Made by a program: the position numbers and the translations under genes. Below the pieces are notes generated by a model that saw only the letters and a list, made by a program, of their open reading frames with translations, did no database searches and was not told where the DNA came from. This document shows positions 26,159-49,548 of a DNA stretch of 64,000 nucleotides, piece after piece. Within the stretch, counting starts at the first letter, position 1. Each line of letters starts with the position of its first letter. Origin of the DNA: an uncultured Rickettsiales bacterium (GTDB taxonomy: Bacteria > Pseudomonadota > Alphaproteobacteria > Rs-D84); the NCBI GenBank assembly GCA_900546225.1, contig URBZ01000002.1, forward strand, positions 78,411-142,410, written 5' to 3'.

Positions 26159-26248
26159 GGATGGGTGGCAGAGCGGTCGAATGCGACGGTCTTGAAAACC
26201 GCTGAAGGGGCAACTCTTCCGGGGGTTCGAATCCCTCCCCATCCGCCA
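26159..26248 (+). tRNA. tRNA-Ser (anticodon TGA), type II, CCA encoded
   Basis: Acceptor GGATGGG/CCCATCC, discriminator G, CCA. Anticodon loop CTTGAAA. Long variable arm. T-arm GGGGGTTCGAATCCCTC. Followed by terminator hairpin CATCCCGTGG..CCACGGGATG + T-run (26258-26292). Confidence 0.8.
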
Positions 26249-26476
26249 GGAAAATTAGACATCCCGTGGTAATCCCACGGGATGTTCTTTTTCGCCCCAT
26301 TTCCGGCGGTTTTTCTGCACGATGTTACCGGTGTATATTATCCCTTGCACTCAATCCGCCCAAAATCCAGCAACTTATATACCTTGCCCAAAATCTCGAC
26401 GCCAGTTTCTTGTTGTTTTTTGTGGATTTTATAATAATTTGTTTTAACATAAAACGAATAAAACGACAGAAATCAA

Positions 26477-27451
26477 ATGACACAAGATAATAAAGTAATA
26501 AAATTAGAAACTTTTTCCACTCATTTCTTTACAAATGGGGCAGACAAGCATTTTATAATAGCGGAAGATTATAAAATATTTATAGAAAGCATAGAACAGA
26601 TACTAGCGAACATAAATACGGAATTACTGAAAGGACAAGCAAAGTACGAATTATGCATTGTTGCAAATAAAGAAGGTGGTTTTTGGAGTACTGTTGGTGT
26701 GCTTGGGACTTTAATAAGTATACCTGCTGCATTGGATTCAGAACTTATACATGGTTTCTATACAGGATTAACTGGACACGATTATGATTTAAGAAGTGTC
26801 GGTGAAAATGTTGGAAGTTTTTTACGAGATGCAACTGTCGGTATTTTTTCTAAAAATGCGACAGAACTGTCGAAAATTATACCCAAAGAATTGAATCTAG
26901 ACAAAGCGATTTATGCTAAAAATGGGTTCTATCGTATGTGCGCTACAAATCAAGACATTAGGGGGGTGTCTTTTTCTGATAGCAATGAGCCAGAAATTCA
27001 AAAGAAAGATTTTGTAAATTATATTGTGTCCGATACCGACAAAAATTTGCCAGCAGAACAGTTTATAGATATTGTTACAATTGTTAAATCGGTAAATGTA
27101 AAAAGTGATGCTAAATGGTCGGTAAAAATTGGCGAAAGTGCCAAACCTAAATCTGTAGAAATGTTAGACGACGAATTTAAAAAAGAATTCCTATCTGGCC
27201 GATATGCAATAAAACAGACCGAACAAGATGACACGATGACGGTTTTATTAGAAAAAAAGAAAAAATATGTCAACGGACATGAACAAGACGCAGGTTTATC
27301 CATAGTAAAAGTATATAAATTTAATGATACACAAATATTACCAATTCCATCAGATATCGCTCATAAAACACGCCGTCCAAAAATAGATTTGTTTAATTTT
27401 CAAGATAATATTACAACTGATTCTTCCATGCAATCTGAAACAAATCGTTAA
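26477..27451 (+). CDS. hypothetical protein (first gene of the AT-rich island)
   Basis: 324 aa ORF, low GC, no recognisable motif. Confidence 0.4.
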   Translation: MTQDNKVIKLETFSTHFFTNGADKHFIIAEDYKIFIESIEQILANINTELLKGQAKYELCIVANKEGGFWSTVGVLGTLISIPAALDSELIHGFYTGLTGHDYDLRSVGENVGSFLRDATVGIFSKNATELSKIIPKELNLDKAIYAKNGFYRMCATNQDIRGVSFSDSNEPEIQKKDFVNYIVSDTDKNLPAEQFIDIVTIVKSVNVKSDAKWSVKIGESAKPKSVEMLDDEFKKEFLSGRYAIKQTEQDDTMTVLLEKKKKYVNGHEQDAGLSIVKVYKFNDTQILPIPSDIAHKTRRPKIDLFNFQDNITTDSSMQSETNR

Positions 27452-27710
27452 CGTTGATTTTGAATTTCCCTGACAAGATTTCGTTAATCTTGTCCGGATT
27501 CATATATGCCAGGTCGAGGTGGCGATAAAACTGACGTGGGGATGTGTGTTCGGATGCGATGATTTTGTCTGCATCGCCACATTCTTCATATGTTTCCCGA
27601 TACTTCCATGCGATGGCAAAGGCTTTGACGATCAGGAGATTATTATCGGTGACGGTCAAGACTCTGTTCTTGGATTTATTAAACACTGTGTTCACATACT
27701 GACGTAGCAC
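27411..27710 (-). pseudogene. N-terminal fragment of a P4-type tyrosine integrase (arm-binding DUF4102-like region only)
   Basis: 99 aa; LLIVKAFAIAWKYRETY...SPRQFYRHLDLAYMNPDKI matches the LYLxVxPxGxKxWxxRYR...LGxYPxxSLAxAR N-terminal integrase pattern. No catalytic domain follows. Confidence 0.3.
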
Positions 27711-27979
27711 AATCGGTATGGTTAAAACTATTCTGTTGCCGCCACAGCTGTAGAATTGGCCGGTAAATCACCAGAAATGACCAAGAAATTATTGGCAGCA
27801 TCGGTGGGAAATAATGTACTGATTGCAACCGGTTACACCATATACCATTACTTTGCTTAGCATTTAAAAGTTTATTATAATCTTATAATCATCAATAAGT
27901 TATGCCAGAAGCCGCGATATAATTTTGTTGCAATTGTTCGTTTTTGTACTAGTATCAAGTGGGTGGGGAGAGGACAACT

Positions 27980-29152
27980 ATGAAAGGTGCCACAATGCTT
28001 TTACGCAATAATTTATTTCGTTTTGAGAAGCCGGACAATTTCCAAAATCTTTCAACTTCCAGATTAATGAATGGTTTGGTTTATGATTTTAACGATCCTT
28101 ATATTCCATTTTTTACACCAATTGGTACACGACTGTTCAACAACATAGAAAATATATTTAAACAAAATGCTATGCGTATTGATTGTAATGAGGTTATTAT
28201 TCCACAATTAATGACCACAGAGTTATTGACCCAAGGTCAAGAAATTGGTGAATTGTTTGGGCGTAAAGTAATGCATCTATCAGGTACGATGGCAGAGTTC
28301 CATCTTCTTACATCTCCGGAGATGATGTTTATAAATATGTTGAAAAAAAATAACATAGAGAGTAATGCGCTGCCAATACATTACTATTTTGTATCTAATT
28401 TTTTCAGAGATATGCATGATCCAAAAAACATACTTCGAACTAAGCAATTGCGTGTTATTGCAGGTATTTCTTTTGACAAAACACAGAATGATAGATTGAA
28501 GACAGAAAATAAACTGTTACAAACTTTGCACAACACGTTTGTTGATTGTAAAGTCCCATTCTTAGCAGAGTATGGCTCTAGTGGATTTACGTGCGAATAT
28601 TTTTACATGAATTCCAAAGAAACAGAAAACTATATAATTCCAAGCATAAATCCGCACAAGAAAACAAAAGCTCTCAGCTTCGCAATGATTTATGATTATG
28701 GTCAAGAATGTCCATTTGATGTTTTACACAAAAATTCAGTAACAGGGCTAAAAGACAAAACCTTTATGACATCATACGCAATAAGCGCCCAGCGATTACT
28801 TTATGTAATAATGGATTCGTGCAGAGATAGCAAAGGCTTTTCAATGCCATCTAATATCCGTCCATACGATGTCGCGCTCATAACAAATGAACAGCAATCG
28901 GATATAGCGCAGAAAATGGCGCGAGATTTGTCATGCAGTGGTATCTCTTCCTATATAGACAATATGTTTACTAAGGCGCACGTTAAGCGTCTGGATGTTG
29001 CCGATTACATAGGAGTCGGATTAAAAATTGTTAATAAGAATGATAAGTTTACTGTCTTTAACCGCGATGGAGAGATGCTGATAACAGGCTTCGCACCAGA
29101 CCTGATTATTTCAGCGGTTAAGGATTCGATTATAGCACAAAAACAAAAATAG
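27980..29152 (+). CDS. class IIa aminoacyl-tRNA synthetase paralog (ProRS/HisRS/ThrRS-like catalytic core plus a C-terminal anticodon-binding-like domain)
   Basis: 390 aa from ATG 27980 (RBS GGAGAGGA). Motif-1-like VIIPQLMTTELLTQGQ. Motif-2-like FFRDMHDPKNILRTKQLRVIAGISFD. Motif-3-like SYAISAQRLLYVIMD. C-terminal PYDVALITNEQ...GISSYIDN...DYIGVGLKIVNK..FTVFNRDGE resembles the HGTP anticodon-binding fold. Confidence 0.55.
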   Translation: MKGATMLLRNNLFRFEKPDNFQNLSTSRLMNGLVYDFNDPYIPFFTPIGTRLFNNIENIFKQNAMRIDCNEVIIPQLMTTELLTQGQEIGELFGRKVMHLSGTMAEFHLLTSPEMMFINMLKKNNIESNALPIHYYFVSNFFRDMHDPKNILRTKQLRVIAGISFDKTQNDRLKTENKLLQTLHNTFVDCKVPFLAEYGSSGFTCEYFYMNSKETENYIIPSINPHKKTKALSFAMIYDYGQECPFDVLHKNSVTGLKDKTFMTSYAISAQRLLYVIMDSCRDSKGFSMPSNIRPYDVALITNEQQSDIAQKMARDLSCSGISSYIDNMFTKAHVKRLDVADYIGVGLKIVNKNDKFTVFNRDGEMLITGFAPDLIISAVKDSIIAQKQK

Positions 29153-29221
29153 TTAAACTGCTTTGCGAGAAGAAAGATACTGTAATTTTCAGAAACAGTA
29201 TAGTGGCTTTTTGAAAAACCA

Positions 29222-29252
29222 GAAAATGCTTGGTAATAATTACATTACTACC
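29222..29252. terminator. bidirectional terminator between the convergent aaRS-like gene and the MccF-like gene (GCTTGGTA...TACCAAGC flanked by A/T runs)
   Basis: 8-bp inverted repeat with A-run upstream and T-run downstream. Confidence 0.5.
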
Positions 29253-29271
29253 AAGCAAAATTTTTACCCGC

Positions 29272-30312
29272 TTAGATAACAGCATTTTCTAAGATAGAAA
29301 ACTTTTTATTTATCATATCCATCTCTGCCAATGCGCCATATGGCAGGTAAAACATAGGGTCTGTGTGTCCGAAATCCATTTGGGTTATAATAGGCATATC
29401 ACTACGACCACATTCGCGTGTGATTGTCAGTAATGCATTTTCGTAAATTGATAAATTGTCTCTGCTGCCTTTTGCCCGTCCCATAATAATCCCCGATATT
29501 CTGTTAAGGATTCCTTGGGCTGCTAAACTGCGCAACCAATACAAAAGCATATCTTCTGGTGGCAAGCTTTCGGACGTTTCAAGAAATAAAATTGCTTTAT
29601 CAAATTCATCCGTTTTAGGAAATAGCTCTGTCCCTGTCAGCATCAATAATACCTCAAAACAACCACCAATCAATCTGCCACGCACTACAGAATTACCTTG
29701 CAAATAATTTGGCCCAGTATATGGATACAGTTTCCGTTTGATTTTTAAATTTTCAGGATATGTCCAATCTAAAAATTCGTCTGTCCAACCATCGGTTGCG
29801 GGTAAAATTTCCCCGATGACATCAGTAGCAAATAATGTTTTCTTTGTTTGCTCTATTGTATATGGAAACAAGCTGACATTTTCGCCGAACCCAGCCATTA
29901 CGGTAGGTCCATAGATAGAGCTTAATCCCGCTTTATAGCACATAAAGTGAATTGCGGTTGGATCAGAATACCCCAAAAAAATCTTTGGATTATTTTTGAT
30001 GATATTCAAATCCAGATATGGGAATAATCTGATACAATCATCACCACCAATGATAGAAATAATCGCTTTTACTTCTGGATTTTCAAACGCCCACATCAGG
30101 TCTTTTGCACGTTCTTCGGGATGTTCATATAAATAATCAATTGATTGCAAAGCGTTCGGAGTTTCTATCACTTTTAGCCCAAAGTTATTTTCTATTTGAC
30201 TTTTCCCCCATTGATATTGATGCGGGAAACGACTTGCTGAACCATAAGAGCAACTAATTGCTGCAACTGTATCGCCAACTTGCAGGGCTTTGGGTTTTAT
30301 TAATGTTTTCAT
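29272..30312 (-). CDS. S66-family serine peptidase, MccF-like (microcin C7 self-immunity / LD-carboxypeptidase fold)
   Basis: 346 aa (MccF is about 344, LdcA about 304). Motifs VGDTVAAIS, IIGGDD, GYSDPTAIH (nucleophile Ser), ...MDFGHTDPMFYLPYGALAEMD (catalytic His). RBS AAGGGAGAA. Confidence 0.75.
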   Translation of the reverse strand: MKTLIKPKALQVGDTVAAISCSYGSASRFPHQYQWGKSQIENNFGLKVIETPNALQSIDYLYEHPEERAKDLMWAFENPEVKAIISIIGGDDCIRLFPYLDLNIIKNNPKIFLGYSDPTAIHFMCYKAGLSSIYGPTVMAGFGENVSLFPYTIEQTKKTLFATDVIGEILPATDGWTDEFLDWTYPENLKIKRKLYPYTGPNYLQGNSVVRGRLIGGCFEVLLMLTGTELFPKTDEFDKAILFLETSESLPPEDMLLYWLRSLAAQGILNRISGIIMGRAKGSRDNLSIYENALLTITRECGRSDMPIITQMDFGHTDPMFYLPYGALAEMDMINKKFSILENAVI

Positions 30313-30345
30313 GCTGTTTTCTCCCTTGGTTTTATATTCGGAGCA

Positions 30346-38987: not shown

Positions 38988-39224
38988 TCAAAAACGTAAT
39001 GCCATGGATATTAAAACAAGCCCGTGTGACCGCTGATTTGTTCGTTGTCGATGTAAATGACCCCTTGGGAAAACGCATCGCATTGGTCTTTGAATATGCA
39101 CCCCAGAAACGCCAACAATTCCTTTTTGAATTCTGTCCACCACGGACCAGCTTCGTTCGGGAATAATATGTGATTTTATAAGTTCCCTTTCTTGCCCACA
39201 AAATTTACAAATTCTAACTACCAT
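38988..39224 (-). pseudogene. truncated HNH-type protein fragment (N-terminal CxxC...HIIPE only)
   Basis: 78 aa. MVVRICKFCGQERELIKSHIIPE resembles the N-terminus of the 346-aa HNH-like protein at 55602..56642 (CIFCGKKPENKNKEHVIPQWL). The rest of the fragment is low-complexity. Confidence 0.3.
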
Positions 39225-39434
39225 ACGGTAAAAATAGTTTTTTTAATGTGATTGTCAAGATTTAGAACCACCCATACTCAATATAGACATCATTTGAAAT
39301 ATCGACAAAAAACATTCAACTCCAAGTTGTATTTTTCAAATACATACACAATATTTCCTAAAAACGCATAAGACAGTCAATAAATACATAACACACATGC
39401 AAATTCAATCAATCATAAAAAGGGACTTATAAAA

Positions 39435-41735
39435 TTATATTTTTATACTCAATGCGTTAAAATGCTTTTTGTCTGTACTTTTGATAAAATGGAACAAATC
39501 TGCAATTTCGTCTCGGCCAGCCACATAGCTAAAGTTCTGACATCCGGAAATCGCGCCAACACCATTCGAATGAGAAAACGCATTGGCCACGCCCCATAAA
39601 TAGTGAAATCTATTATTATCATTTTCTGTCAGACAGTTAAACTTTTTCAAATACGAATTTGTATTAGGAATCTTTGCATCCAAGTAAGTTTCTAGTACCC
39701 GTCGAATAAGATTACCTATGCATACGTCTGGGGGTGTTCGTTTATTCTGATAAAATTCATTTAATTTCTGTACAAGATCCAAATATTCAGAAGTACTGTT
39801 TTGTAAGTAATCACTAGCCATTCTAATCTTTGAACCCACTGATGCTATTTTTTGTATTTCAAATATCTTGAAATTATTCTTATCTATATGTTTCATAGCT
39901 TCTCTAATTTTTACAAAAAAATAGAAATTATGTGTCAGCAATATTACTTGCTCACATTTTTTTATAGTGGTAACTATCCAGTCACCTATTTGGAATAGAT
40001 TCTTACTATCCAAGCTAGAAACAGGATCATCAATAACTATTATTGGACTTTCCTTTCCGGCTTTTTTCATCGATTGAATTGGAATGATAAAATACAAAAA
40101 TGCGATAAGAGTTTTCTCACCTTCGCTTAGATTTTTTGCATCAACGAATGTACCATCGTCAAGCTTTCTTTGTATTGTATAAACATTCTCCCTTGGGCCC
40201 TCTCTAAAAGAGATATTATTTAATGCAGATTGTTCCAATGCTTTATTGATCAACATAATAATTTTAGACTTCTCGGCCAACTTACGCTTACAATCCAGTT
40301 TCTGCTTTTCTAAATCACCTAATCTTTGTTTGTCTGTATCCCTATCTTTTGTTTTTTGTTTTATTTTTTCATCCATTATATTTAATGTCTGTGAATTCTT
40401 TTGGATATAAAACAGAACCACTTGCTGCTTATATTTTACTTTTCTACTTTCCAGAGAATCTATAATTGCATTGTGTTGTTGTATTATAACCTCTATCGTC
40501 TTTATCGATTTTATTAAACATTGTAAATTATCATATATCTGATTTTCGTACGTTATAGAATACGTTGTCTCCAAATTAAGTGCTTTTTTTGCAACAGATT
40601 CATCTAATTTTTCTAAGAGTGGTTTCAGCTCTATCAATATGTTATTTATTTGATTCTTTTCTGCAATATACCTATCATACGCACTGTCCCTAGATAATTT
40701 AGAAGCATCCGGCAAAGATATTTCAACTTGTTCTATAAGTTCCCTATTATCTCTCAAGACATCTATTAACGTCCAAAAAGCTTTTTCTTGCATATCAAAA
40801 ACAACATCTTTCTTGACCAACTCTTTTATTTCTTGATAACGCTGCTGCCAGAAATCATCGGCAATCTTTTGATTACAAAACAAACAATTAGAATGATTAC
40901 CCCGGTGCAATGCCAAGCCACTTTCTAACCACTGTTTTATATTCTCTGTTCCAGGATTGGAATTTCTGGATAACGATGTCTGCAAAATATCTATTATCGA
41001 TTTATACGCATCAATATTGAAATCTGCATCAAAGTTTCTTAATTTATTGACTATATTTAATTCTATTTTCGTTTTTATTGGTTCAATAAAAATATCTCTT
41101 GCGTGATTTTTTTCTTCTTCACTAATGCGTTCCTCTTTATCCTGTTGCACACGTTCTAAATCTATCTTTAATTGCTTTTGTGTATACTTCTGCGGGCTAT
41201 CAATATGCAAGCAAATACGTATTTCTTTTGCAACATTACTTAGAAAATCATTTTTTTGTTGTTCTAGCTTTTGCAGCTCTATATTTGACTTTAAGTCCGT
41301 ACCACCACCAACAACAAGGGTTTCAATATCCGCATTGATTTTATTTAGTTTTTCTGTAATTTTTATATTTTGATCACCAATAATAATATCAACTTTGTTT
41401 GCTCGAGATTTTTTTAAGGAAAGATTATTCTCTATAAAATCCGTATTAAAAACTTTTATTTTATCTATCAATGGCCCATCTACTACAGAACGAAAAACCT
41501 TTCTTTTTCCGCCAACTTTGTAACACAACTCGCCTTTAGAAAAATTGTACAGCACGTTATTTTCATTGTCTACGTATTGCATTTGACCACGACTGATACA
41601 TTCAAACATTCGACTAAGAGTTGTTTTCCCAGTGCCATTGTAACCATAAAACAGATTGTATTTTGCTAATTTTACTGTTTCTGACTGCTTACGAAAACTA
41701 CCTATGTTAGAAATCTTTTGAATAGCATCTATCAT
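39435..41735 (-). CDS. RloC/PrrC-family AAA ATPase with coiled-coil insertion (predicted anticodon-nuclease-type abortive-infection protein)
   Basis: 766 aa. Walker A GYNGTGKTT. Long coiled coil with CLFCNQ (CxxC, zinc-hook-like). ABC signature NLSEGEKTLIAFLYF. Walker B IIVIDDPVSSLD. H-loop LLTHNFYF. C-terminal about 160 aa with IRRVLE (RxxxE), then His about 33 aa later in RFHYLW (PrrC-like ACNase spacing). Confidence 0.55.
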   Translation of the reverse strand: MIDAIQKISNIGSFRKQSETVKLAKYNLFYGYNGTGKTTLSRMFECISRGQMQYVDNENNVLYNFSKGELCYKVGGKRKVFRSVVDGPLIDKIKVFNTDFIENNLSLKKSRANKVDIIIGDQNIKITEKLNKINADIETLVVGGGTDLKSNIELQKLEQQKNDFLSNVAKEIRICLHIDSPQKYTQKQLKIDLERVQQDKEERISEEEKNHARDIFIEPIKTKIELNIVNKLRNFDADFNIDAYKSIIDILQTSLSRNSNPGTENIKQWLESGLALHRGNHSNCLFCNQKIADDFWQQRYQEIKELVKKDVVFDMQEKAFWTLIDVLRDNRELIEQVEISLPDASKLSRDSAYDRYIAEKNQINNILIELKPLLEKLDESVAKKALNLETTYSITYENQIYDNLQCLIKSIKTIEVIIQQHNAIIDSLESRKVKYKQQVVLFYIQKNSQTLNIMDEKIKQKTKDRDTDKQRLGDLEKQKLDCKRKLAEKSKIIMLINKALEQSALNNISFREGPRENVYTIQRKLDDGTFVDAKNLSEGEKTLIAFLYFIIPIQSMKKAGKESPIIVIDDPVSSLDSKNLFQIGDWIVTTIKKCEQVILLTHNFYFFVKIREAMKHIDKNNFKIFEIQKIASVGSKIRMASDYLQNSTSEYLDLVQKLNEFYQNKRTPPDVCIGNLIRRVLETYLDAKIPNTNSYLKKFNCLTENDNNRFHYLWGVANAFSHSNGVGAISGCQNFSYVAGRDEIADLFHFIKSTDKKHFNALSIKI

Positions 41736-41752
41736 CGTGTAACTTCTTATGC

Positions 41753-43078
41753 TTATTTTAGATCCTCAAATGCTTTCGCCATTGTCGGGTTATTTCTTGT
41801 CAAACGTTTTATTGATAAATTCTGCGCTTTATCATTAGCCAAACGCAGATTATTTTCAGTCCCGAGTAAGGCATCCTTTATTTTTTGCAAGTGATCTATT
41901 GTCTTATCAATTTCTTCTATAGCCTTCTTGAATTTGTCGCTGGCTGTTTTATAATTCCGACCAAAGCGATCTCTAAACTCATTCATTTCTGCTTCAAAAT
42001 TTGAGACATCGATATTGGCCTGCTTGTATTCTGCAATTTGTTGTTTGTATTGAACAGAATTCAGTGCCGCATTCCGTAACAATGTTATAATTGGAATAAA
42101 ACATTGTGGTCTTACAACATACATTTTTGGATATTTGTGCGACACATCAACAATACCAGCATTATATAATTCATTGTCAGATTCCAGCAACGAAACCAAA
42201 ACAGCATATTCACAATTTTTATCCTTTCGGTCTTTATCAAGTTCTTTGAAAAAATCTTCATTTTTGTGTTTTGTGGCTGTTGTATCCATCTCGTTTTTCA
42301 TTTCAAACATAATGGATATAAATTCCGTTTTTTTATCAACATCTGCATAATCACGAAATATAAAATCGCCCTTACTTCCATTCTTGACTTCGTTGTCTTT
42401 TTCGAAATATGCATTTGGGAATGCTGCAGGCCGCATCCGTTCAAATTCAATATGACAGTGTTGTTCCAATGTCTCTCCTACCATTTTTGTGGACATTTTT
42501 GTTTTCATGTCCTTGTATAGCGCAATTTCGACATCTTTTGCCTTTAATTGTGCATCATATTCACTTTTTAATGTTTGTTGTTTTAATTCAATATCTTGTG
42601 CGGCCGCCTTTACTTCGCCCTGCAAGGCAAGAATTTGCGCGTCTTTTTCAAAAAGCATATCCTTTGATTTACTTAATGCCTTTTCTACTGCAATTACCTT
42701 TTCCTGCTCTGATGCATTTATACGTGCTTTGAATTCGACAATTTGTTCATTCAAACATGCAATAGACTTTGCTTTGTCCGCTTCTATACCCGCAATTTTT
42801 AACTTCATTTCAGCCGCAGCATCGCGCTCTGCCGATGAAATTTTCTCTTTGAGTGTTGCTATTTCTTCTTTTAACGCAGAAATTGATAATTCTTTATCGT
42901 TTTTTGCCTGTTCTTTTAATAAGTCGATTTCACTTTTTGATTGCGCCTTATATTGTTGTAATCGCAACGCAACCTCCTTGTCAAACTCAACATTTTTAAT
43001 TTGACTTACAATCGCTGCATAACCCGATTCATCAATAGTGAATTGCGTATTACATTTCGGACATTTTATCTCGTGCAT
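41753..43078 (-). CDS. DUF2130 family protein (N-terminal zinc ribbon, long coiled coil, C-terminal nuclease-like domain)
   Basis: 441 aa from ATG 43078 (RBS AAGGAGAAATAT). N-terminus MHEIKCPKCNTQFTIDESGYAAIV is typical of DUF2130. 17 nt upstream of the RloC-like gene. Confidence 0.65.
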   Translation of the reverse strand: MHEIKCPKCNTQFTIDESGYAAIVSQIKNVEFDKEVALRLQQYKAQSKSEIDLLKEQAKNDKELSISALKEEIATLKEKISSAERDAAAEMKLKIAGIEADKAKSIACLNEQIVEFKARINASEQEKVIAVEKALSKSKDMLFEKDAQILALQGEVKAAAQDIELKQQTLKSEYDAQLKAKDVEIALYKDMKTKMSTKMVGETLEQHCHIEFERMRPAAFPNAYFEKDNEVKNGSKGDFIFRDYADVDKKTEFISIMFEMKNEMDTTATKHKNEDFFKELDKDRKDKNCEYAVLVSLLESDNELYNAGIVDVSHKYPKMYVVRPQCFIPIITLLRNAALNSVQYKQQIAEYKQANIDVSNFEAEMNEFRDRFGRNYKTASDKFKKAIEEIDKTIDHLQKIKDALLGTENNLRLANDKAQNLSIKRLTRNNPTMAKAFEDLK

Positions 43079-43088
43079 ATATTTCTCC

Positions 43089-43421
43089 TTAAATCTTGGA
43101 CACATCTAGGTCAACATGCGCGACACACTGCTGCTCACATTTGTGTTGACACTGTTCATCTGTGTACCATTGACCATCACGCACAACCAAGCGAGACATT
43201 TTTGCAATTTTAAAGCAACGCCACGACGCAGGTATTTCCGTTGGTATCTGCCCTTTGCTGCTTTCTCCAGCAAACTGATACCCTAGCAACTGTTCTTGGC
43301 CTTGGTCATTCAATCCGATTATATGTGGACACACTTCTCGATGAAATCCGTCATAATCAAAAAACAATTGCTGTTTGTGCTCAATTGCACCCCTAATAAC
43401 CATATAGTTTTCAGACGCCAT
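43089..43421 (-). CDS. small WYL-like domain protein (no HTH)
   Basis: About 110 aa from MASENY (RBS AAGAGGAAAAAGC). QLFFDYDGFHREVCPHIIG...LLGYQF...IPASWRCFKIAKMSRL fits the WYL-fold pattern (R.v.P..l...W.R.FrldRI). Stop is 10 nt before the DUF2130 start. Confidence 0.35.
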   Translation of the reverse strand: MASENYMVIRGAIEHKQQLFFDYDGFHREVCPHIIGLNDQGQEQLLGYQFAGESSKGQIPTEIPASWRCFKIAKMSRLVVRDGQWYTDEQCQHKCEQQCVAHVDLDVSKI

Positions 43422-44021
43422 GCTTTTTCCTCTTGTTTTACAATAAAGAGATAGCACACATTAGGAACAAAAGCAATAACTTATTGTAATTACTGTATTT
43501 TAGGAAATTTTTCCCAATATTTTTGTGATATATTGCTTTTATGTGCAACATAACTGGATATATTGTCGCGCATCACGCGCTTTTTTGCACCAATACAGAG
43601 TATTACAGACCACAATTCAACCACAGGTTGTACAAAGACGAAAATTCAATTTATTTTTTACAAACATCCTAACCATCAGACAAAATTCGCGTGATACGCG
43701 AATTTATGCAAATATTCAATCACCGGTTACACAATGCGTTTTTTATAAAGAAATCAACCAATACTAGAATTTACACCTAATTTTGTACTATATGCAAACT
43801 TTTTTACAACTTTACACATTTATACCATTTAGACAATCGACATCTGAAAACCGCCCTGCAATTCAACCATTGGTTGAATTGTTTATATTTTTCTATCACT
43901 GCTTACAAAAACAGCTGTTTTTTCTACCACAGATTGTATTTTATGACAAAATCAACTTATTGTAGAATACACTGTTCGTTTTTTGAGATTTTACGTAATT
44001 ATCACACAAAAAACATATCTC

Positions 44022-44915
44022 GTTATAGGCTGCTTCTCAAATCGTCTTTGATATAATCATTTTTTCGTTCGCTTTTCGCAACTTACAGTTATAGGTTGCT
44101 TCTCAAATCGTCTTTGATATAATGTGAATTACCAGAAATAGGCAATTTAACCTGTTATAGGTTGCTTCTCAAATCGTCTTTGATATAATTTATATGCTTA
44201 GCATGTGCGAGCGTCTACGGTTATAGGTTGCTTCTCAAATCGTCTTTGATATAATCCAGCATTCGCAACGGTACAAATCAACCCGGTTATAGGTTGCTTC
44301 TCAAATCGTCTTTGATATAATCGAAATATGTAGAACAGAGCACTCGAAGGAGTTATAGGTTGCTTCTCAAATCGTCTTTGATATAATGGCACATCTTTGT
44401 CAACCTGCGCCTGCAAAGTTATAGGTTGCTTCTCAAATCGTCTTTGATATAATGTCAACAGTCGCAATAACATTTCCCATCGTGTTATAGGTTGCTTCTC
44501 AAATCGTCTTTGATATAATAAAAAGGATTAAGCTATGATACTCAGAGATGTTATAGGTTGCTTCTCAAATCGTCTTTGATATAATGTCAACAGTCGCAAT
44601 AACATTTCCCATCGTGTTATAGGTTGCTTCTCAAATCGTCTTTGATATAATAACACAATCCCGGTGTGGTATGTAAACCTGGTTATAGGTTGCTTCTCAA
44701 ATCGTCTTTGATATAATCGAATTCAAAGACCTTGATTGGGCGCATTTGTTATAGGTTGCTTCTCAAATCGTCTTTGATATAATATTCGGGGTTGTACCAC
44801 GTAACACAATTCCGTTATAGGTTGCTTCTCAAATCGTCTTTGATATAATAAACCATTCGAACACATTTACACGTGCAATGTTATAGGTTGCTTCTCAAAT
44901 CGTCTTTGATATAAT
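44022..44915 (+). CRISPR. CRISPR array, 14 x 36-bp repeats (GTTATAGGTTGCTTCTCAAATCGTCTTTGATATAAT), 13 spacers of 30 nt, period 66
   Basis: Repeat starts at 44022, 44088, 44154, 44220, 44286, 44352, 44418, 44484, 44550, 44616, 44682, 44748, 44814, 44880. The first repeat is degenerate (GGC for GGT). Spacers 7 and 9 are identical. Each repeat ends in TTTGATATAAT (extended -10). Confidence 0.95.
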
Positions 44916-44922
44916 AGACACA

Positions 44923-44957
44923 CAAAAACCCACTGATAAAAGTGGGTTTTTGTGTAT
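44923..44957. terminator. bidirectional hairpin terminator between the array and cas2 (CACAAAAACCCACT-GATAAA-AGTGGGTTTTTGTG)
   Basis: 14-bp inverted repeat seen directly in the sequence; symmetric, so functional on both strands. Confidence 0.5.
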
Positions 44958-45018
44958 TATATTCAACAAAAAACGTACGTATTGCCATCGGCTGATGACG
45001 AATCGTCTTGTTTTTTTA

Positions 45019-45351
45019 TCAAAACATCAGTAATTGTTGCGAACTGATTTTTTCTGCCGTGGGCGCATCGCCAACCAAAAACAGCATATCTGCGAATTGT
45101 TTTTCCGTGACGGTTAAAACCCTGATTGAACCAGATGGCGGCGTCAAATGTCGCAATCGTTGTAAATGCTTCTCCATTCCGGCCAACCCCTTGACTATTC
45201 GGGAATATACCGAGAATTGCATCATGTAATACCCGTCGTTCAACAAGTCGTTTCTGAAACGCGTAGCATATTTCCGTTCACGCTTTGTGCCAACGGGCAA
45301 ATCAAAGAATACTATTATACGCATAAATTTTTCCTGACGGTTGTACAACAT
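45019..45351 (-). CDS. cas2: CRISPR-associated endoribonuclease Cas2
   Basis: 110 aa; MLYNRQEKFMRIIVFFDLPV...RFRNDLLNDGYYMMQFSVY. Confidence 0.85.
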   Translation of the reverse strand: MLYNRQEKFMRIIVFFDLPVGTKRERKYATRFRNDLLNDGYYMMQFSVYSRIVKGLAGMEKHLQRLRHLTPPSGSIRVLTVTEKQFADMLFLVGDAPTAEKISSQQLLMF

Positions 45352-45352
45352 T

Positions 45353-46267
45353 TTAGTTCTGGGTATTTACTATTTCTGGTGCTGATTTTATAGATGGCAA
45401 TTTCAATGCATCTAAGTTTTTATTACAAAAACATGTTGCCACGGATTCTGCATACAGCGGCATGGCATTCAGCACCGAATGTCGAACACCACCAAAGGCG
45501 CAACTGTGCAATAATACCGACACCAATCGTTGTTTGATATTTGGGGTTAAATGCGCACAACCATCAAAATCAAATGACAGCACAATAAAGTCCACAAATG
45601 GCCGCCACGGTTCAATCATGTCGTCGACCATGCAAAAATTATCAAGTTTGTTACAATGATGTACGCCATAAAAAGGTAACAGACCCGCACCAACCGCGCT
45701 GCGTGCGACACACCCGCGTAATATGGCATAGCCGTAATTCAATGCATGATTTCGTACATCGGCATCATCACTGCGGTTGAAATTTTCCCACAGGGCCGAC
45801 CAATAGATACGAGCCGCAAGCCCCTCTATATTTTTAGTGTCACCAGACGCGACATTTTCAGCCAAAATTTCCAAACGCTTATATGCGGGATTATCACACA
45901 ACTTTAAGATTGCCGATTGATTTCGAATTTTTTGTTTAACAATTTCTTGCCACATACGTTTACGGAATGGCAACGACGATGCAATTTGTGCATGCGCAAT
46001 TTCAGTATATCTGGAATTATTATGAAACGGAAAGAATGCACCATTCGGCAGGTGTGACGCATCACAAGAAAACGCAACCACGCCGTTTTCAGCCAATTCA
46101 GACATCAGCGCAGATGTAATTTGAATCTGGGGATTTTCCAGTATGACAACCGCGATATCTTCTAATGGGATATCTTGGACACCACCGGTGTCACCAGTCC
46201 AGTGCAGTTGCTTGTGCCGAACACAAATCCGACATGGATTTGTCAGGGTCAGAATACGCCAAGACAT
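45353..46267 (-). CDS. cas1: CRISPR-associated endonuclease Cas1 (type II)
   Basis: 304 aa; typical Cas1 beta-sandwich and alpha-helical domain motifs (HALNYGYAILRG...); 1-nt gap to cas2. Confidence 0.9.
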   Translation of the reverse strand: MSWRILTLTNPCRICVRHKQLHWTGDTGGVQDIPLEDIAVVILENPQIQITSALMSELAENGVVAFSCDASHLPNGAFFPFHNNSRYTEIAHAQIASSLPFRKRMWQEIVKQKIRNQSAILKLCDNPAYKRLEILAENVASGDTKNIEGLAARIYWSALWENFNRSDDADVRNHALNYGYAILRGCVARSAVGAGLLPFYGVHHCNKLDNFCMVDDMIEPWRPFVDFIVLSFDFDGCAHLTPNIKQRLVSVLLHSCAFGGVRHSVLNAMPLYAESVATCFCNKNLDALKLPSIKSAPEIVNTQN

Positions 46268-46315
46268 TTAATTGTCCTTTGTTTGTATCCTTTCCCACAC
46301 AGGTGATATAGTGCA

Positions 46316-49264
46316 CTATTTTCGTTTTACAACCGGCGTGCGCTGTTCTGGCAACTTTATCGGTTTTGGTGTACCCAGTAATGACACAGCAAACTTTTCA
46401 ATGTTTGTGCATTTACCAACAGATTTTTTCACAACCTGTGTCCGATTGTTATCTTGGCGATACAATATGAAGTTTGTGCCATGATCCATTTTGGTGATAT
46501 ATCCTTCGTACACACCATCTGCAGCGGTCAGGCGAACATAATCGTCCTTGTGTAACGAACAGACAAATTCACCATCTGGGACTTTGAAGACATCGTCATC
46601 TTTCCCCTTGGTATCGGTAACAAAAATCGGAACACACACGTATTTGCCATGCGCATTGCGCCAAATATCAAATCGAAACATATCGCCACGAACAGCGCGT
46701 CCATGTCGAATTTCCAGTGATCCTTTGTCGCGATTTTTATTCAGACCACGTTTTGAACGATATGATTTTGGATCTGCGTAAATTGTTTCATCGTGCGCCG
46801 CACCCGTGGCGTTACAACGTGGCGGGCGCGATACAATAATATCGTTCAAGCAGGAGATAACATCAGTACGAAAACCGTTCCATGGTTCTTGGATAGAAGT
46901 TTTCAGTGCGGTATACCATGCCTGACCATATTTTTGAATCAGCGCATATTTGTTTTCAAATCGCGCCGACAGCGTTGACAGGTACTTTACCATACCCTGT
47001 GTCGCACATGCGATTACAATCGCGTCTTGGGCATGATGTTTGTCTGATTCATCACGATTTTTGACCAAGCCCCACTGGTGACGCAGATAGTCCGTCAAAG
47101 AACCAGTACGCACCAATACTCGCTTTTTTATATCATCAGATGCAGGCCAATCGATACCATATTCCAAATATTCCGTGGCGAACTTGGCAATAGTGGCATT
47201 ATCATTCGCGTTACGTTCAATAAAACCGTTTTGTTCGGCATCACACTTGGGTAAATCGGTGTTCGTCAATTTTTTGAACTTTGCAGGATTATGCAAGGCA
47301 CGCGCACGCACCGTCATGTCATAAAATTGTTCAGATGTCAGAAACTCATATGGCGTTTTGCTGCCCTTGCGTTGATTACATTCGTGACAGACCAAAACCC
47401 TGTTGCTCTGCGAATTATCAAGGGAACGCGAATATGGCAAAATATGGTCTATTTCATACGCCCCCCAATCACCAGCAGCCAATACCGCATTACAGTATGG
47501 GCACTTGCCACCCTGCTCCATATACAATTTATACTTAAAGTAATTTTTGCCGTACTCTTTGCGGGCTTCTTCGGTTGCCTGACGATTGCGTTCCTGTTCG
47601 CGATTCATGCGCGCAATATCATCGGGCGAATTTTTTAATTCACGACCGATTTCCAAATGGATTCTGTCGGGCGCGCCAAACCGATAAACCATCGCATTAT
47701 AAACCTTGCGTAATTGGACAAGGGTTCGCTTGGCAACTGGTGATGTAATACGATTACCCAGCAAAGTCCAATTTATCTGGTGCAGATGCCCCGCTGGCGC
47801 GCCGTCGTCGCGATTTATATACGACACGTTTTGTGCCCTGAAATCTTTGTTCAGGCCAGATGCAACCGCTTCGTTATACTTTTTGCCATTCTCCATTTCA
47901 GGAATAATTTTTTGCAATGCAGAGATAGACAACTTGATAAATTCTGAACTGGTGATTTGTGCGATTGCGGCGGCATGTTCTGGCAATATTTCAGACACAG
48001 CGCGTTCAATATTTTCCGGCGTTTTCTGGGTTGCGATGACATCAAATATCTTGTCCATCGTGTCTATATCGGTTGTGTATTTGGCCAGTTTATGCCAACC
48101 CGTAAATGCATAGAATTTCTGACATTCGATTTTCTTGATATCAGGTTCAATCCACACCTTGTTTTCTTTGTCATATATACGGGAATAGTTCAACGTTTTG
48201 AACTGTTTATCATCGTCCCATTTCAACAGGTTACGCACGTCGGCATATTTCAGCCCCGTTTTCTTTTTATATAACTCATCTATAACTGTCTGGGTTTCAG
48301 CAACCGTAAAATCATTTTGGCGACACTTGGTCAATGCGACAAACTTTTGCGCCGTTGGCGATTCCTTGGGCGCGACCGGTTCATTCGTGAACGGACATTT
48401 GCCACGCATTTCCGCAATAGATTTGGCCAATGGCGATGCAGATTCATTAAATTTACGTTGGCGACACGCAACAGCCCACCATTTTTCAAACGCGTCCGAA
48501 AAATCATTACCAAAGTCACGTTGCGCGTGCAAAATCATTTCTGCTTCGCGCTTGATTTCCGAACGCGGAATAGAACTTGAATACGTTGATTGCACTTCTG
48601 TTTTTTGCGTGCCGTCTTTTGCGATTTTGACAACGCTTTTTCTGCCGTTGCGCATCTGAGCGTGTTCGGTGGCATACAGCATTTGGCACATTGTTTGATC
48701 CGGATTTTCACGTTGCAGTTTGGCCAAATTATCTTTGATTGCACCAATGGCTTTTAATTCCTCTTTGGACTCTGCGTCGTCCGCCTTTTCTGATTTTGCA
48801 CCAGCTGGCACAGGGTATGTTATATCATCGTACCCGCGATGCTTTGCCAAATGGTACAAGATGCGTCCTGTTTCACGCGGCGTCAGTTTTCGCGTAAAAG
48901 CGTCAACCGCACGCAGTTGCCAGATGTTTATATCCGTATCACGGTTCAGATAAAAATTATTTTGTCCGTCAGATTTTGGTTCTGGAATATCAATCAGATG
49001 GTATTGACGTAAAATATCGCGAATTTCGCGCATACGCTGTGCACGATGTCTGATTCTGCGACGCGCACCACGCGCCGTGCGACGATCGGCGGCATTTTGT
49101 GCCTGATCAAAACAGCGCACACCCGCACCCACTATTTCACCCACGGGGCGGCTGTCGGGCGCGGACGCATCTGTGGTTGATGCCGTTGGATCTGACATTC
49201 TAACAGCGGCCCAACCGATACTGGCGATACCCAAATCGAATCCAAAAATCAAAGACATGTGCAT
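46316..49264 (-). CDS. cas9: Cas9, compact type II-C
   Basis: 982 aa. RuvC-I IFGFDLGIASIGWA. Arg-rich bridge helix. HNH YEIDHILPYSRSLDNSQSNRVLVCHECNQRKG. RuvC-III HHAQDA. No csn2 or cas4 nearby, so subtype II-C. Confidence 0.95.
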   Translation of the reverse strand: MHMSLIFGFDLGIASIGWAAVRMSDPTASTTDASAPDSRPVGEIVGAGVRCFDQAQNAADRRTARGARRRIRHRAQRMREIRDILRQYHLIDIPEPKSDGQNNFYLNRDTDINIWQLRAVDAFTRKLTPRETGRILYHLAKHRGYDDITYPVPAGAKSEKADDAESKEELKAIGAIKDNLAKLQRENPDQTMCQMLYATEHAQMRNGRKSVVKIAKDGTQKTEVQSTYSSSIPRSEIKREAEMILHAQRDFGNDFSDAFEKWWAVACRQRKFNESASPLAKSIAEMRGKCPFTNEPVAPKESPTAQKFVALTKCRQNDFTVAETQTVIDELYKKKTGLKYADVRNLLKWDDDKQFKTLNYSRIYDKENKVWIEPDIKKIECQKFYAFTGWHKLAKYTTDIDTMDKIFDVIATQKTPENIERAVSEILPEHAAAIAQITSSEFIKLSISALQKIIPEMENGKKYNEAVASGLNKDFRAQNVSYINRDDGAPAGHLHQINWTLLGNRITSPVAKRTLVQLRKVYNAMVYRFGAPDRIHLEIGRELKNSPDDIARMNREQERNRQATEEARKEYGKNYFKYKLYMEQGGKCPYCNAVLAAGDWGAYEIDHILPYSRSLDNSQSNRVLVCHECNQRKGSKTPYEFLTSEQFYDMTVRARALHNPAKFKKLTNTDLPKCDAEQNGFIERNANDNATIAKFATEYLEYGIDWPASDDIKKRVLVRTGSLTDYLRHQWGLVKNRDESDKHHAQDAIVIACATQGMVKYLSTLSARFENKYALIQKYGQAWYTALKTSIQEPWNGFRTDVISCLNDIIVSRPPRCNATGAAHDETIYADPKSYRSKRGLNKNRDKGSLEIRHGRAVRGDMFRFDIWRNAHGKYVCVPIFVTDTKGKDDDVFKVPDGEFVCSLHKDDYVRLTAADGVYEGYITKMDHGTNFILYRQDNNRTQVVKKSVGKCTNIEKFAVSLLGTPKPIKLPEQRTPVVKRK

Positions 49265-49380
49265 TCCTCTTTGTTTTTACCCTTGTATTATGAATATAGA
49301 CCCAACAAGCACAAATTACAACCCGACACCATAAAAACAAAAAACTTGACGTCAGCAATAATCTATCATAGCATAGTGAC

Positions 49381-49503
49381 GTAAGAAATCTTTATTGACG
49401 GACGATTTGAGAAGCAACCGTTTATATAATAAAGAATATTTTCTGTGGGGTTTTACGATTACGTATCCCCTGCGCCGTCCCCCAACGGGGGACGGCTTTT
49501 ATT
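49381..49503 (+). ncRNA. tracrRNA (divergent from cas9)
   Basis: GACGATTTGAGAAGCAACC (49401-49419) is perfectly complementary to repeat positions 7-25. Upstream TTGACG-17-TAGCAT promoter (49346-49374). 3' terminator CCGTCCCCCAACGGGGGACGG + TTTTATTTAT (49475-49505). Confidence 0.7.
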
Positions 49504-49515
49504 TATGGCAAACAC

Positions 49516-49548
49516 ATCAAAAAACACCCGCGGGCGGGTGTTTTTGTT
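49516..49548. terminator. terminator AAAAACACCCGCGGGCGGGTGTTTTTGTTTT (3' of the 49549 gene)
   Basis: GC hairpin flanked by A/T runs. Confidence 0.5.

What the first reader, a model, noticed from the sequence alone, without database searches (positions are those of the whole stretch)
39435..43421. Three-gene WYL-like / DUF2130 / RloC-PrrC-like operon immediately flanking the CRISPR array: candidate composite defence system
Minus-strand genes sit 10 and 17 nt apart. The first is a 110-aa WYL-like sensor-domain protein without an HTH. The second is a DUF2130 protein (Zn-ribbon + coiled coil + predicted nuclease-like C-terminus). The third is a 766-aa ABC-type ATPase of the RloC/PrrC family, with a coiled-coil CxxC zinc-hook insertion and a C-terminal domain with PrrC-like RxxxE...H spacing (anticodon nuclease). 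RloC/PrrC proteins are tRNA-cleaving suicide effectors. WYL domains are ligand sensors that regulate defence systems. DUF2130 is of unknown function. I am not aware of this trio described as a unit. Its position next to a CRISPR array is typical of defence islands.
Basis: partly seen in the sequence, partly recalled or inferred. Interest (0 to 1): 0.8.

Follow-up and report, generated by a model that had tools for sequence, protein, structure and literature searches.

The report
RloC tRNA-nuclease operon with two companions
Three tightly packed genes encode a known kind of tRNA-cutting suicide enzyme (RloC family), a conserved nuclease of unknown role (DUF2130) and a small sensor-like WYL protein. 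The trio is almost unique to this lineage, so it is an interesting but unproven composite defence system.

Summary
Three minus-strand genes lie 10 and 17 nt apart: a 110-aa stand-alone WYL-fold protein, a DUF2130 protein and a 766-aa ABC ATPase. The ATPase meets every sequence criterion published for RloC: ABC motifs, an invariant CxxC hook, R678-x3-E682-x39-S721-H722, and a HEPN-fold C-terminus.

The "unit" claim is only weakly supported.
- Of 80 species-level DUF2130 loci, one (a Ca. Enterousia MAG) also holds an RloC-like gene and the small WYL gene, rearranged and interleaved with other defence candidates.
- None of 80 loci with the small protein holds DUF2130 or this RloC-type subfamily.
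- None of 80 proviral RloC-family loci holds either partner.
- RloC relatives sit in type I R-M operons or alone, as the literature describes.
- The CRISPR adjacency is strain-specific. A sister strain has the same trio at the same site without cas9, cas1, cas2 or the array.

Looser pairings do recur. DUF2130 lies directly beside several different defence ATPases (OLD, PDC-S46, TrlF-like, AAA_21). The small WYL protein lies beside DUF2130 or DNA-damage ABC ATPases (OLD, UvrA2, SbcC-like, an ABC-HEPN candidate).

Best reading: an RloC effector with two possibly DNA-signal-sensing companions, assembled in this lineage. Functional coupling is unproven.

The parts
43089..43421 (-). Gene 1: 110-aa stand-alone WYL-fold protein with no HTH and no other domain
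   Evidence: ORF and RBS. AF2 model pLDDT 83.5. The top Foldseek PDB hits are the WYL domains of DriD (ssDNA-bound entries) and PafBC, prob 1.0, TM about 0.6. Pfam WYL is sub-threshold at E=0.012.
41753..43078 (-). Gene 2: 441-aa DUF2130 protein
   Evidence: Pfam PF09903 4.7e-90, aa 168-429. More than 8000 homologues, 60-72% identical among the best 120. The family is listed in the PD-(D/E)XK superfamily (PMC3424549).
43052..43063 (-). DUF2130 N-terminal CPxC (C6, C9), invariant in the family; half of a zinc-ribbon-like knuckle
   Evidence: Invariant columns in alignment A1. Weak Zn_ribbon_4 and MJ0042 matches.
41792..42577 (-). DUF2130 core domain with invariant D238 ... E259-M-K261, a PD-(D/E)xK-type motif
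   Evidence: Alignment A1 invariants, Pfam envelope, superfamily assignment in PMC3424549. The fold itself was not modelled here.
39435..41735 (-). Gene 3: 766-aa RloC-family ABC ATPase / anticodon-nuclease candidate
   Evidence: Pfam AAA_13 297 bits against a cut-off of 36, collinear over aa 11-724. PADLOC PDC-S06 3.1e-91. Relatives are named 'wobble nucleotide-excising tRNase' by JGI.
41622..41645 (-). Walker A, G31-YNGTGKT-38
   Evidence: G31, G36, K37, T38 at 98-100% conservation.
40875..40886 (-). CxxC zinc-hook motif (C284-LF-C287), midway between Walker A (aa 31-38) and the ABC signature (aa 536)
   Evidence: 100% conserved together with W269, G273 and H277. It matches the RloC description in PMC2610378.
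39438..39902 (-). C-terminal HEPN-fold domain (aa 612-766), the predicted ACNase
39690..39704 (-). R678-x3-E682 of the predicted catalytic triad
   Evidence: R678 100% and E682 98% conserved. It fits Arg-X3-Glu-X36-52-His (PMC2610378).
39570..39575 (-). S721-H722, the third triad residue, 39 residues after E682
   Evidence: 97-98% conserved. 'Ser often precedes His' (PMC2610378). G. kaustophilus RloC has R692/E696/H737.
43422..43787 (-). AT-rich upstream region (GC 0.31 over 43422-44021) inherited together with the trio; presumed promoter region
   Evidence: The block shared with strain L001 runs from 39159 to 43787. Composition. No promoter was demonstrated.

Best explanation
This is a lineage-specific three-gene operon whose effector is a genuine RloC-family anticodon nuclease. 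That enzyme is an ABC ATPase with a zinc-hook insert and a C-terminal HEPN RNase. Characterised members are switched on by DNA ends plus ATP hydrolysis, cut tRNA anticodon loops and stop translation. The two upstream genes are companions rather than universal partners. DUF2130 carries a CPxC motif, a variable middle region and PD-(D/E)xK nuclease motifs. The other gene encodes a stand-alone WYL-fold protein, and solved relatives of that fold bind single-stranded DNA. Inferred mechanism: on phage attack or DNA damage, DUF2130 cuts or processes DNA, the WYL protein binds the resulting ssDNA or a related ligand, and these DNA signals raise or gate RloC's built-in DNA-dependent switch, giving translation shut-off (abortive infection). 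Shown here: gene identities, motifs, folds, operon-like packing, and maintenance in two strains. Inferred: any enzymatic activity, any interaction among the three proteins, and an anti-phage role.
For: Gene packing and RBSs. The block is intact at 91.6% nucleotide identity in a sister strain, with proteins 95.5, 96.6 and 90.5% identical. RloC criteria are met. The WYL fold matches ssDNA-bound DriD and PafBC. DUF2130 shows the PD-(D/E)XK signature. RloC's ACNase needs DNA and ATP hydrolysis and responds to double-strand breaks (abstracts of PMC3458546 and PMC3874168). DUF2130 lies within 46 nt of, or overlaps, several different ATPase genes: PDC-S46, OLD-TOPRIM in 7 loci, a 'TrlF family AAA-like ATPase' on a Lactococcus plasmid and a similar 846-aa AAA_21 protein in a Streptococcus MAG, and an AAA_21/SMC_N protein. 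The small WYL gene adjoins DUF2130 in three lineages with three different arrangements: the window, Ca. Enterousia L018, and OLD-DUF2130-WYL prophage cassettes. It also adjoins an AAA_13-like ABC protein carrying CxxC and an Rx6H motif beside SbcCD-like genes on an Aliarcobacter plasmid, and UvrA2-like and mini-ABC ATPases in soil contigs.
Against: The trio itself is nearly unique. Only 1 of 80 DUF2130 species loci has the other two genes, and there they are separated by NUDIX, DUF4238 and SLFN-helicase (PDC-S41) genes with the WYL gene convergent. None of 80 small-protein loci has DUF2130 or this RloC-type subfamily. None of 80 proviral RloC-family loci, nor 5 other contexts, has DUF2130 or the WYL gene. 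RloC is documented as self-sufficient, with an internal switch. DUF2130 at 63-69% identity is a solitary gene among tRNA-synthetase, RNase J or other non-defence genes, and most of its neighbours are housekeeping genes. DUF2130 partners change at about 70% DUF2130 identity. GC3 differs among the three genes (0.405, 0.303, 0.275), which hints at piecemeal assembly. PADLOC has no model for DUF2130.
Confidence: 0.45

Rival explanations
1. Mere juxtaposition. Three functionally autonomous genes (an RloC-type ACNase that works alone, an autonomous DUF2130 nuclease and an autonomous small WYL protein) have accumulated side by side in a variable hot spot downstream of tRNA-Ser. They are co-transcribed only because islands pack genes tightly.
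For: Each family occurs overwhelmingly without the other two. RloC has an internal switch and spreads without partners. The region is a hot spot with three strain-specific indels: the CRISPR-Cas block, 33576-39158 and 26253-33414. The only other co-occurrence, L018, is a crowded island holding other candidates between the three genes. GC3 values are unequal.
Against: Gaps of 10 and 17 nt with RBSs and no internal terminator. The rare small WYL gene appears next to DUF2130 in three unrelated lineages, and next to AAA_13-like or other DNA-related ABC ATPases elsewhere. This is hard to explain by chance. OLD and DUF2130 stay paired across 77-90% DUF2130 divergence.
Confidence: 0.4
2. A DNA-damage response or repair module rather than anti-phage immunity. 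DUF2130 would act as an RmuC-like recombination or repair nuclease, the WYL protein as an ssDNA damage sensor, and RloC as a damage-triggered brake on translation.
For: WYL relatives DriD and PafBC are DNA-damage regulators that bind ssDNA (descriptions). The small WYL family sits next to UvrA2- and SbcCD-like genes. RloC is activated by double-strand-break inducers. DUF2130 is very conserved and often lies among housekeeping genes.
Against: Low-GC, strain-variable island location. PADLOC flags the ATPase as a defence candidate. DUF2130 neighbours include OLD, DUF4297-HerA, TIR/caspase and R-M genes. DUF2130 occurs on plasmids and in prophage-like contigs.
Confidence: 0.1
3. A CRISPR-Cas accessory module working with the neighbouring type II-C system.
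For: The trio starts 600 nt from the array. WYL proteins and ABC-HEPN proteins are sporadically cas-linked in the literature (PMC3710099) and in PADLOC's WYL description.
Against: The sister strain keeps the trio at the same site with no cas9, cas1, cas2 or array. No cas genes were seen in the other DUF2130 contexts examined, nor in the RloC-relative or small-WYL contexts for which neighbouring genes were listed. The array end facing the trio is the degenerate end, distal from cas2.
Confidence: 0.02

Closest known systems
RloC (Geobacillus kaustophilus / Acinetobacter baylyi; Pfam AAA_13, COG4694)
   Same: Length class (766 aa; G. kaustophilus triad residues lie at 692-737). ABC motifs. A central CxxC hook between Walker A and the signature. 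Arg-X3-Glu-X39-(Ser)His triad. HEPN-fold C-terminus. Not embedded in an R-M operon.
   Different: Only 24-34% identical to any relative outside its own lineage. Preceded in the same operon by DUF2130 and a stand-alone WYL gene, which no other RloC context examined shows. Activity is untested.
PrrC (E. coli anticodon nuclease of the prr / EcoprrI locus)
   Same: ABC ATPase plus C-terminal HEPN ACNase with an R-x3-E...H triad. Suicide-type translation shut-off logic.
   Different: PrrC's triad lies at residues 320-356, so it is a much shorter protein, and it lacks the coiled-coil/zinc-hook insert. It is always inside a type Ic hsd operon that silences it. Here there are no hsd genes, and the PADLOC PrrC model aligns only to the ATPase part (7e-11, aa 532-682).
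PADLOC candidate PDC-S06
   Same: Full-length match, 3.1e-91.
   Different: PDC-S06 is defined as a single-gene, unvalidated candidate. The two upstream genes are not part of it.
OLD-family ATPase-nuclease cassettes (P2 Old, Gabija GajA)
   Same: An ABC ATPase fused to a nuclease. In the prophage contigs found here, OLD is followed by DUF2130 and sometimes the small WYL gene, a parallel three-gene layout.
   Different: The effector domain is TOPRIM (DNA) rather than HEPN (RNA). The gene order differs. OLD-DUF2130 is itself undescribed in the literature searched here.
WYL-domain regulators DriD and PafBC
   Same: The same Sm-like WYL fold. Those proteins sense ssDNA after DNA damage.
   Different: They are 320-640-aa transcription factors. 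Here the protein is a bare 110-aa WYL domain that cannot bind a promoter on its own.
Rad50-Mre11 / SbcC-SbcD
   Same: An ABC ATPase with an apical zinc hook, encoded next to a nuclease gene.
   Different: The DUF2130 nuclease is PD-(D/E)xK-type, not a phosphoesterase. The ATPase carries an RNase domain. The pairing is not conserved.

Membership tests
RloC (AAA_13) | [quoted passage not shown] | tested here: met
   GYNGTGKT at 31-38, LSEGE at 536, IIVIDDPVSSLD at 565-576, TH at 601-602. All are 88-100% conserved.
RloC (AAA_13) | Long insert with a central CxxC zinc hook between Walker A and the signature | tested here: met
   C284/C287 are invariant, sitting 246 aa after Walker A and 249 aa before the signature. 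The helical, coiled-coil nature of the arms was not modelled. It is inferred from collinearity with the Pfam AAA_13 model and PMC2610378.
RloC (AAA_13) | C-terminal Arg-X3-Glu-X36-52-His, with Ser often before His | tested here: met
   R678, E682 and S721-H722 (X39), 97-100% conserved. The definition is quoted.
RloC (AAA_13) | HEPN fold of the ACNase domain | tested here: met
RloC (AAA_13) | Wobble-nucleotide excision from tRNA; DNA-dependent ATPase switch | not testable with these tools
   Biochemical properties (PMC2610378, PMC3458546).
PrrC | Compact protein without a coiled-coil/zinc-hook insert | tested here: not met
   766 aa with a roughly 500-aa insert containing CxxC. PrrC's triad lies at residues 320-356.
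PrrC | Embedded in a type Ic hsd restriction-modification operon | tested here: not met
   The neighbours scanned are MORN, DnaJ and unknown genes on one side and CRISPR-Cas on the other. No hsd genes were found among them.
WYL domain (PF13280) | Sm-like beta-barrel WYL fold | tested here: met
   The top 11 Foldseek hits are DriD and PafBC WYL domains, prob 1.0.
WYL domain (PF13280) | Pfam HMM score above the gathering threshold | tested here: not met
   16.1 bits against a cut-off of 21.8, E=0.012. PADLOC WYL E=0.004.
WYL-type transcription regulators | Fusion to an HTH (and a WCX domain) | tested here: not met
   A 110-aa single-domain protein.
DUF2130 (PF09903; PD-(D/E)XK clan) | Pfam match plus the D...ExK signature | tested here: met
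   301.8 bits against a cut-off of 26.7. D238, E259 and K261 are invariant. Clan assignment from PMC3424549. The fold was not modelled.
PADLOC PDC-S06 | Full-length match to the PDC-S06 HMM | tested here: met
   3.1e-91, aa 1-762.
   1/80 DUF2130 loci (rearranged), 0/80 small-protein loci, 0/80 RloC-family proviral loci, and 0 of 5 further RloC contexts.
CRISPR-associated accessory genes | Conserved linkage to cas genes | tested here: not met
   Sister strain L001 has the trio without cas genes or an array.

The most novel reading that the evidence does not exclude
DUF2130, alone or with the small stand-alone WYL protein, is a portable DNA-end/ssDNA-generating and -sensing module. It plugs into interchangeable ABC-ATPase nuclease effectors: RloC-HEPN here, and OLD-TOPRIM, PDC-S46 and TrlF-like ATPases elsewhere. 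If so, this operon is one member of an unrecognised modular class of abortive-infection systems, and it would give a first function to the very large, highly conserved DUF2130 family.
Probability: 0.25. Interest if true: 0.8.

Novelty: new variant of a known kind. Interest (0 to 1): 0.5.

Why it matters
RloC is understood as a self-contained, DNA-damage-gated tRNA nuclease. An operon that adds a dedicated nuclease and an ssDNA-sensor-like protein would show how such suicide enzymes can be wired to upstream DNA signals. It has no known function and no defence-database model. Its repeated placement directly beside several ATPase-type defence genes gives a concrete, testable lead. If the genes prove independent, the locus is simply another RloC copy in a defence hot spot.

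Tried and rejected
1. CRISPR accessory role. Rejected because sister strain L001 lacks the whole cas9-array block but keeps the trio.
2. PrrC membership. Rejected on size, the zinc-hook insert and the absence of hsd genes. The PADLOC PrrC model matches only the ATPase part.
3. Sequence search of the PDB with all three proteins found nothing useful, so folds were predicted for two of them instead.
4. hhalign of the HEPN alignment against the C-terminus of the PDC-S46 partner ATPase was not significant (prob 0.2). Whether that partner is also an ABC-HEPN protein remains open.
5. The 110-aa gene upstream of DUF2130 in contigs L011-L016 is not a WYL relative. The short ORFs downstream of DUF2130 in L017 and L019 also did not match the small-protein profile, and I judge them unlikely to be genes.
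6. DUF2130 has no hit in 50,697 deposited phage genomes, so it is not a typical phage gene, although it occurs in 22 IMG/VR contigs.
7. The afdb50 fold library was unavailable.
9. The organism was not identified.


Full report
**Observation**

The three minus-strand ORFs are exactly as reported.
- Gene 1 runs 43089-43421 and encodes 110 aa from an ATG preceded by AAGAGGA.
- Gene 2 runs 41753-43078 and encodes 441 aa, with GGAG 8 nt before the ATG.
- Gene 3 runs 39435-41735 and encodes 766 aa.
- The gaps are 10 and 17 nt, and no terminator-like hairpin lies between the genes.
- A CRISPR array of 14 repeats of 36 nt spans 44022-44915, followed by cas2, cas1 and a 982-aa cas9. Its nearest repeat is 600 nt from the start of gene 1.

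**Gene 3 is a bona fide RloC-family protein**

Pfam AAA_13 matches aa 11-724 collinearly, at 297 bits against a cut-off of 36. PADLOC's candidate PDC-S06 matches full length at 3.1e-91, whereas its PrrC model aligns only to the ATPase region. JGI names the relatives 'wobble nucleotide-excising tRNase'.

A 66-sequence family alignment shows these features at 88-100% conservation:
- Walker A at 31-38, LSEGE at 536, DD at 569-570 and TH at 601-602;
- C284 and C287, placed symmetrically between Walker A and the signature;
- in the C-terminus S649-E650-Y651, R678, E682, S721-H722 and H758.

Davidov and Kaufmann define RloC by PrrC-like ABC motifs, a coiled-coil/CxxC zinc-hook insert and 'Arg-X3-Glu-X36-52-His (where Ser often precedes His)'. 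In G. kaustophilus RloC the triad is R692/E696/H737 (PMC2610378). The window protein has X39 with Ser before His.

**Gene 1 is a bare WYL domain**

Pfam is sub-threshold (E=0.012). A 9-sequence AlphaFold2 model (pLDDT 83.5, pTM 0.79) gives the WYL domains of DriD (including ssDNA-bound entries) and PafBC as its top eleven PDB matches, prob 1.0 and TM about 0.6. Sm proteins follow. There is no room for an HTH.

**Gene 2 is DUF2130**

Pfam gives 4.7e-90. The family is very large and unusually conserved. All 8000 scored candidates were significant, and the best 120 are 60-72% identical. Identity stays at or above 50% in MAGs assigned to many phyla, including one contig binned in an archaeal MAG.

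Invariant residues include an N-terminal CPxC and D238...E259-M-K261. The family is listed in the PD-(D/E)XK superfamily with function 'unknown' (PMC3424549). No PADLOC model matches it, and no paper in the library assigns it a role.

**Genomic setting**

GC falls from about 0.47 to 0.32-0.39 between roughly 26 and 46 kb, starting after tRNA-Ser at 26159-26248.

A 48-kb contig from a related strain (L001) is syntenic at 91-93% nucleotide identity.
- It carries the same trio block (window 39159-43787, 91.6% identity).
- It lacks the whole cas9-cas1-cas2-array-tracrRNA block (window 43788-49518), having 0.76 kb with an unrelated 155-aa ORF instead.
- It also lacks window 33576-39158 and 26253-33414.

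The trio is therefore a long-resident part of a variable hot spot, and its CRISPR adjacency is a strain-level accident. The proteins are 95.5, 96.6 and 90.5% identical between the strains.

**Is the trio a unit? Tests from each side**

DUF2130 side:
- Of 80 species-representative loci with up to 8 kb of flank, only L018 (a Ca. Enterousia MAG) also has an RloC-type gene (34% identity) and the small WYL gene (37%).
- In L018 the ATPase lies 5 kb upstream and the WYL gene is convergent. DUF4238, NUDIX and a Schlafen-like helicase (PDC-S41) lie between them.
- The 79 same-strand immediate neighbours of DUF2130 are mostly housekeeping or miscellaneous genes.
- The 69%-identical DUF2130 is a solitary gene between unannotated genes and a class II (Asp/Lys/Asn-type) tRNA synthetase, with RNase J nearby.

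WYL side:
- 80 metagenome loci (355 kb in total, many of them short) hold neither DUF2130 nor this RloC-type subfamily.

RloC side:
- Relatives sit inside type I R-M operons, in one case with RhuM and Fic genes nearby. Others sit in a defence island, or alone among metabolic genes. This matches the literature.
- 80 proviral loci (891 kb) hold neither partner.

**Looser associations that do recur**

DUF2130 lies immediately beside several different ATPase genes:
- an ABC ATPase matching PADLOC PDC-S46 at 8.6e-238, with start and stop overlapping, where DUF2130 is 72% identical to the window copy;
- OLD-family ABC-TOPRIM proteins in seven loci, with a 2-nt gap or a 4-nt overlap;
- a 'TrlF family AAA-like ATPase' on a Lactococcus plasmid, and a similar 846-aa AAA_21 protein in a Streptococcus MAG;
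- a 947-aa AAA_21/SMC_N protein;
- a DUF4297-HerA system.

Within the OLD-linked group the pairing persists over 77-90% DUF2130 identity. In the window's own clade the partner changes at about 70% identity (RloC, PDC-S46, AAA+, none).

The small WYL gene follows DUF2130 in four prophage contigs as OLD-DUF2130-WYL. Elsewhere the same small family adjoins:
- an SbcD/SbcC-like pair plus an AAA_13-like ABC protein with CxxC and an Rx6H motif, on an Aliarcobacter plasmid;
- UvrA2-like proteins (PDB 2vf7, E=0);
- a roughly 255-aa mini ABC ATPase whose best PDB match is an OLD-family nuclease, in 21 of about 79 soil contigs.

It also occurs on small ColE1-type E. coli plasmids without any such partner.

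**Mechanism**

The following is established for the family. RloC's ACNase is held off by its zinc hook and ATPase. It is turned on by DNA plus ATP hydrolysis and by double-strand-break inducers (abstracts of PMC3458546 and PMC3874168).

My inference for this locus is as follows. RloC is the effector. DUF2130, as a PD-(D/E)xK nuclease, could create or process DNA ends. The WYL protein could bind ssDNA. Together they would supply or gate the DNA signal that trips RloC, ending in translation arrest.

No step of this coupling is shown. The data fit almost as well with three autonomous genes packed into one island. GC3 values of 0.405, 0.303 and 0.275 hint that the operon was assembled piecemeal.

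**Verdict**

The composite-system claim is only partly supported. The core is a new, divergent member of the known RloC family. What is new is its operonic pairing with DUF2130 and a bare WYL protein, and the wider pattern of these two beside ABC-ATPase nucleases. I rate it a new variant of a known kind, with interest 0.5. I give a 25% chance that it represents a modular DUF2130/WYL-plus-ATPase class, which would be considerably more interesting.

Noticed in passing
window 43788-49518: The type II-C CRISPR-Cas block is a presence/absence polymorphism and is missing from sister strain L001. It comprises 14 repeats with a degenerate repeat at 44022 facing the trio, then cas2, cas1 and cas9. An anti-repeat (tracrRNA candidate) lies at about 49393-49425, upstream of cas9.
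   Followed up: partly
window 44918-44957: A strong 15-17-bp bidirectional hairpin with T-runs lies between cas2 and the first repeat of the array.
   Followed up: no
window 26253-33414: A window-specific 7.2-kb insert lies directly after tRNA-Ser (26159-26248). It encodes two class II aminoacyl-tRNA-synthetase-like paralogues, two methyltransferases and an LD-carboxypeptidase, and may be a small biosynthetic or modification island.
   Followed up: partly
window 33576-39158: A window-specific, low-GC plus-strand cluster of unknown function holds a MORN-repeat protein, a DnaJ-domain protein and a 408-aa protein with no Pfam match. L001 has 1.07 kb with different ORFs here.
   Followed up: partly
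window 38988-39224: A 78-aa ORF with an N-terminal CxxC lies just downstream of the ATPase gene and has no Pfam match. The block shared with L001 ends inside it, at 39159.
   Followed up: no
L181 6106-9769; also L182, L185, L189, and without WYL L054, L180, L194: A tight OLD-family (ABC-TOPRIM) plus DUF2130 cassette occurs with or without a small WYL gene. In L181 and L182 terminase and portal genes lie nearby. No description of it was found in the literature searched here.
   Followed up: partly
L005 4654-8197 (also L006-L009): A DUF2130 gene 72% identical to the window copy overlaps the start of a 730-aa ABC ATPase matching PADLOC PDC-S46 (8.6e-238), beside serine-recombinase and DUF2924 genes. 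The pair looks mobile.
   Followed up: partly
L216 217-7381 (Aliarcobacter cryaerophilus plasmid pCNAC48): The locus reads SbcD-like, SbcC-like ATPase, 97-aa WYL protein, then a 691-aa AAA_13-like ABC protein with CxxC and a C-terminal Rx6H (HEPN-type) motif. It is a second instance of a small WYL gene directly upstream of an ABC-HEPN candidate.
   Followed up: partly
L098, L116, L129, L139, L162, L213 and about 21 other soil loci in L097-L176: The small WYL family (43-50% identical to the window protein) commonly follows a UvrA2-like gene. It also neighbours a roughly 255-aa mini ABC ATPase related to OLD/PtuA/AriA ATPase domains.
   Followed up: partly
L214 4998-5312 (E. coli plasmid pMB6206_3) and six similar small plasmids: A 43%-identical small WYL-like gene is carried on 4.6-11.8-kb plasmids, six of the seven predicted mobilizable. 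On the one examined (pMB6206_3, with colicin and mob genes) no ATPase partner is present.
   Followed up: no
L212 6001-10374 (Paraburkholderia sabiae plasmid) and L208 6001-9871 (Lactococcus lactis pCV56A): DUF2130 lies directly upstream of a DUF4297-HerA anti-phage pair in Paraburkholderia, and of a 'TrlF family AAA-like ATPase' next to an Eco57I-type R-M gene in Lactococcus.
   Followed up: no
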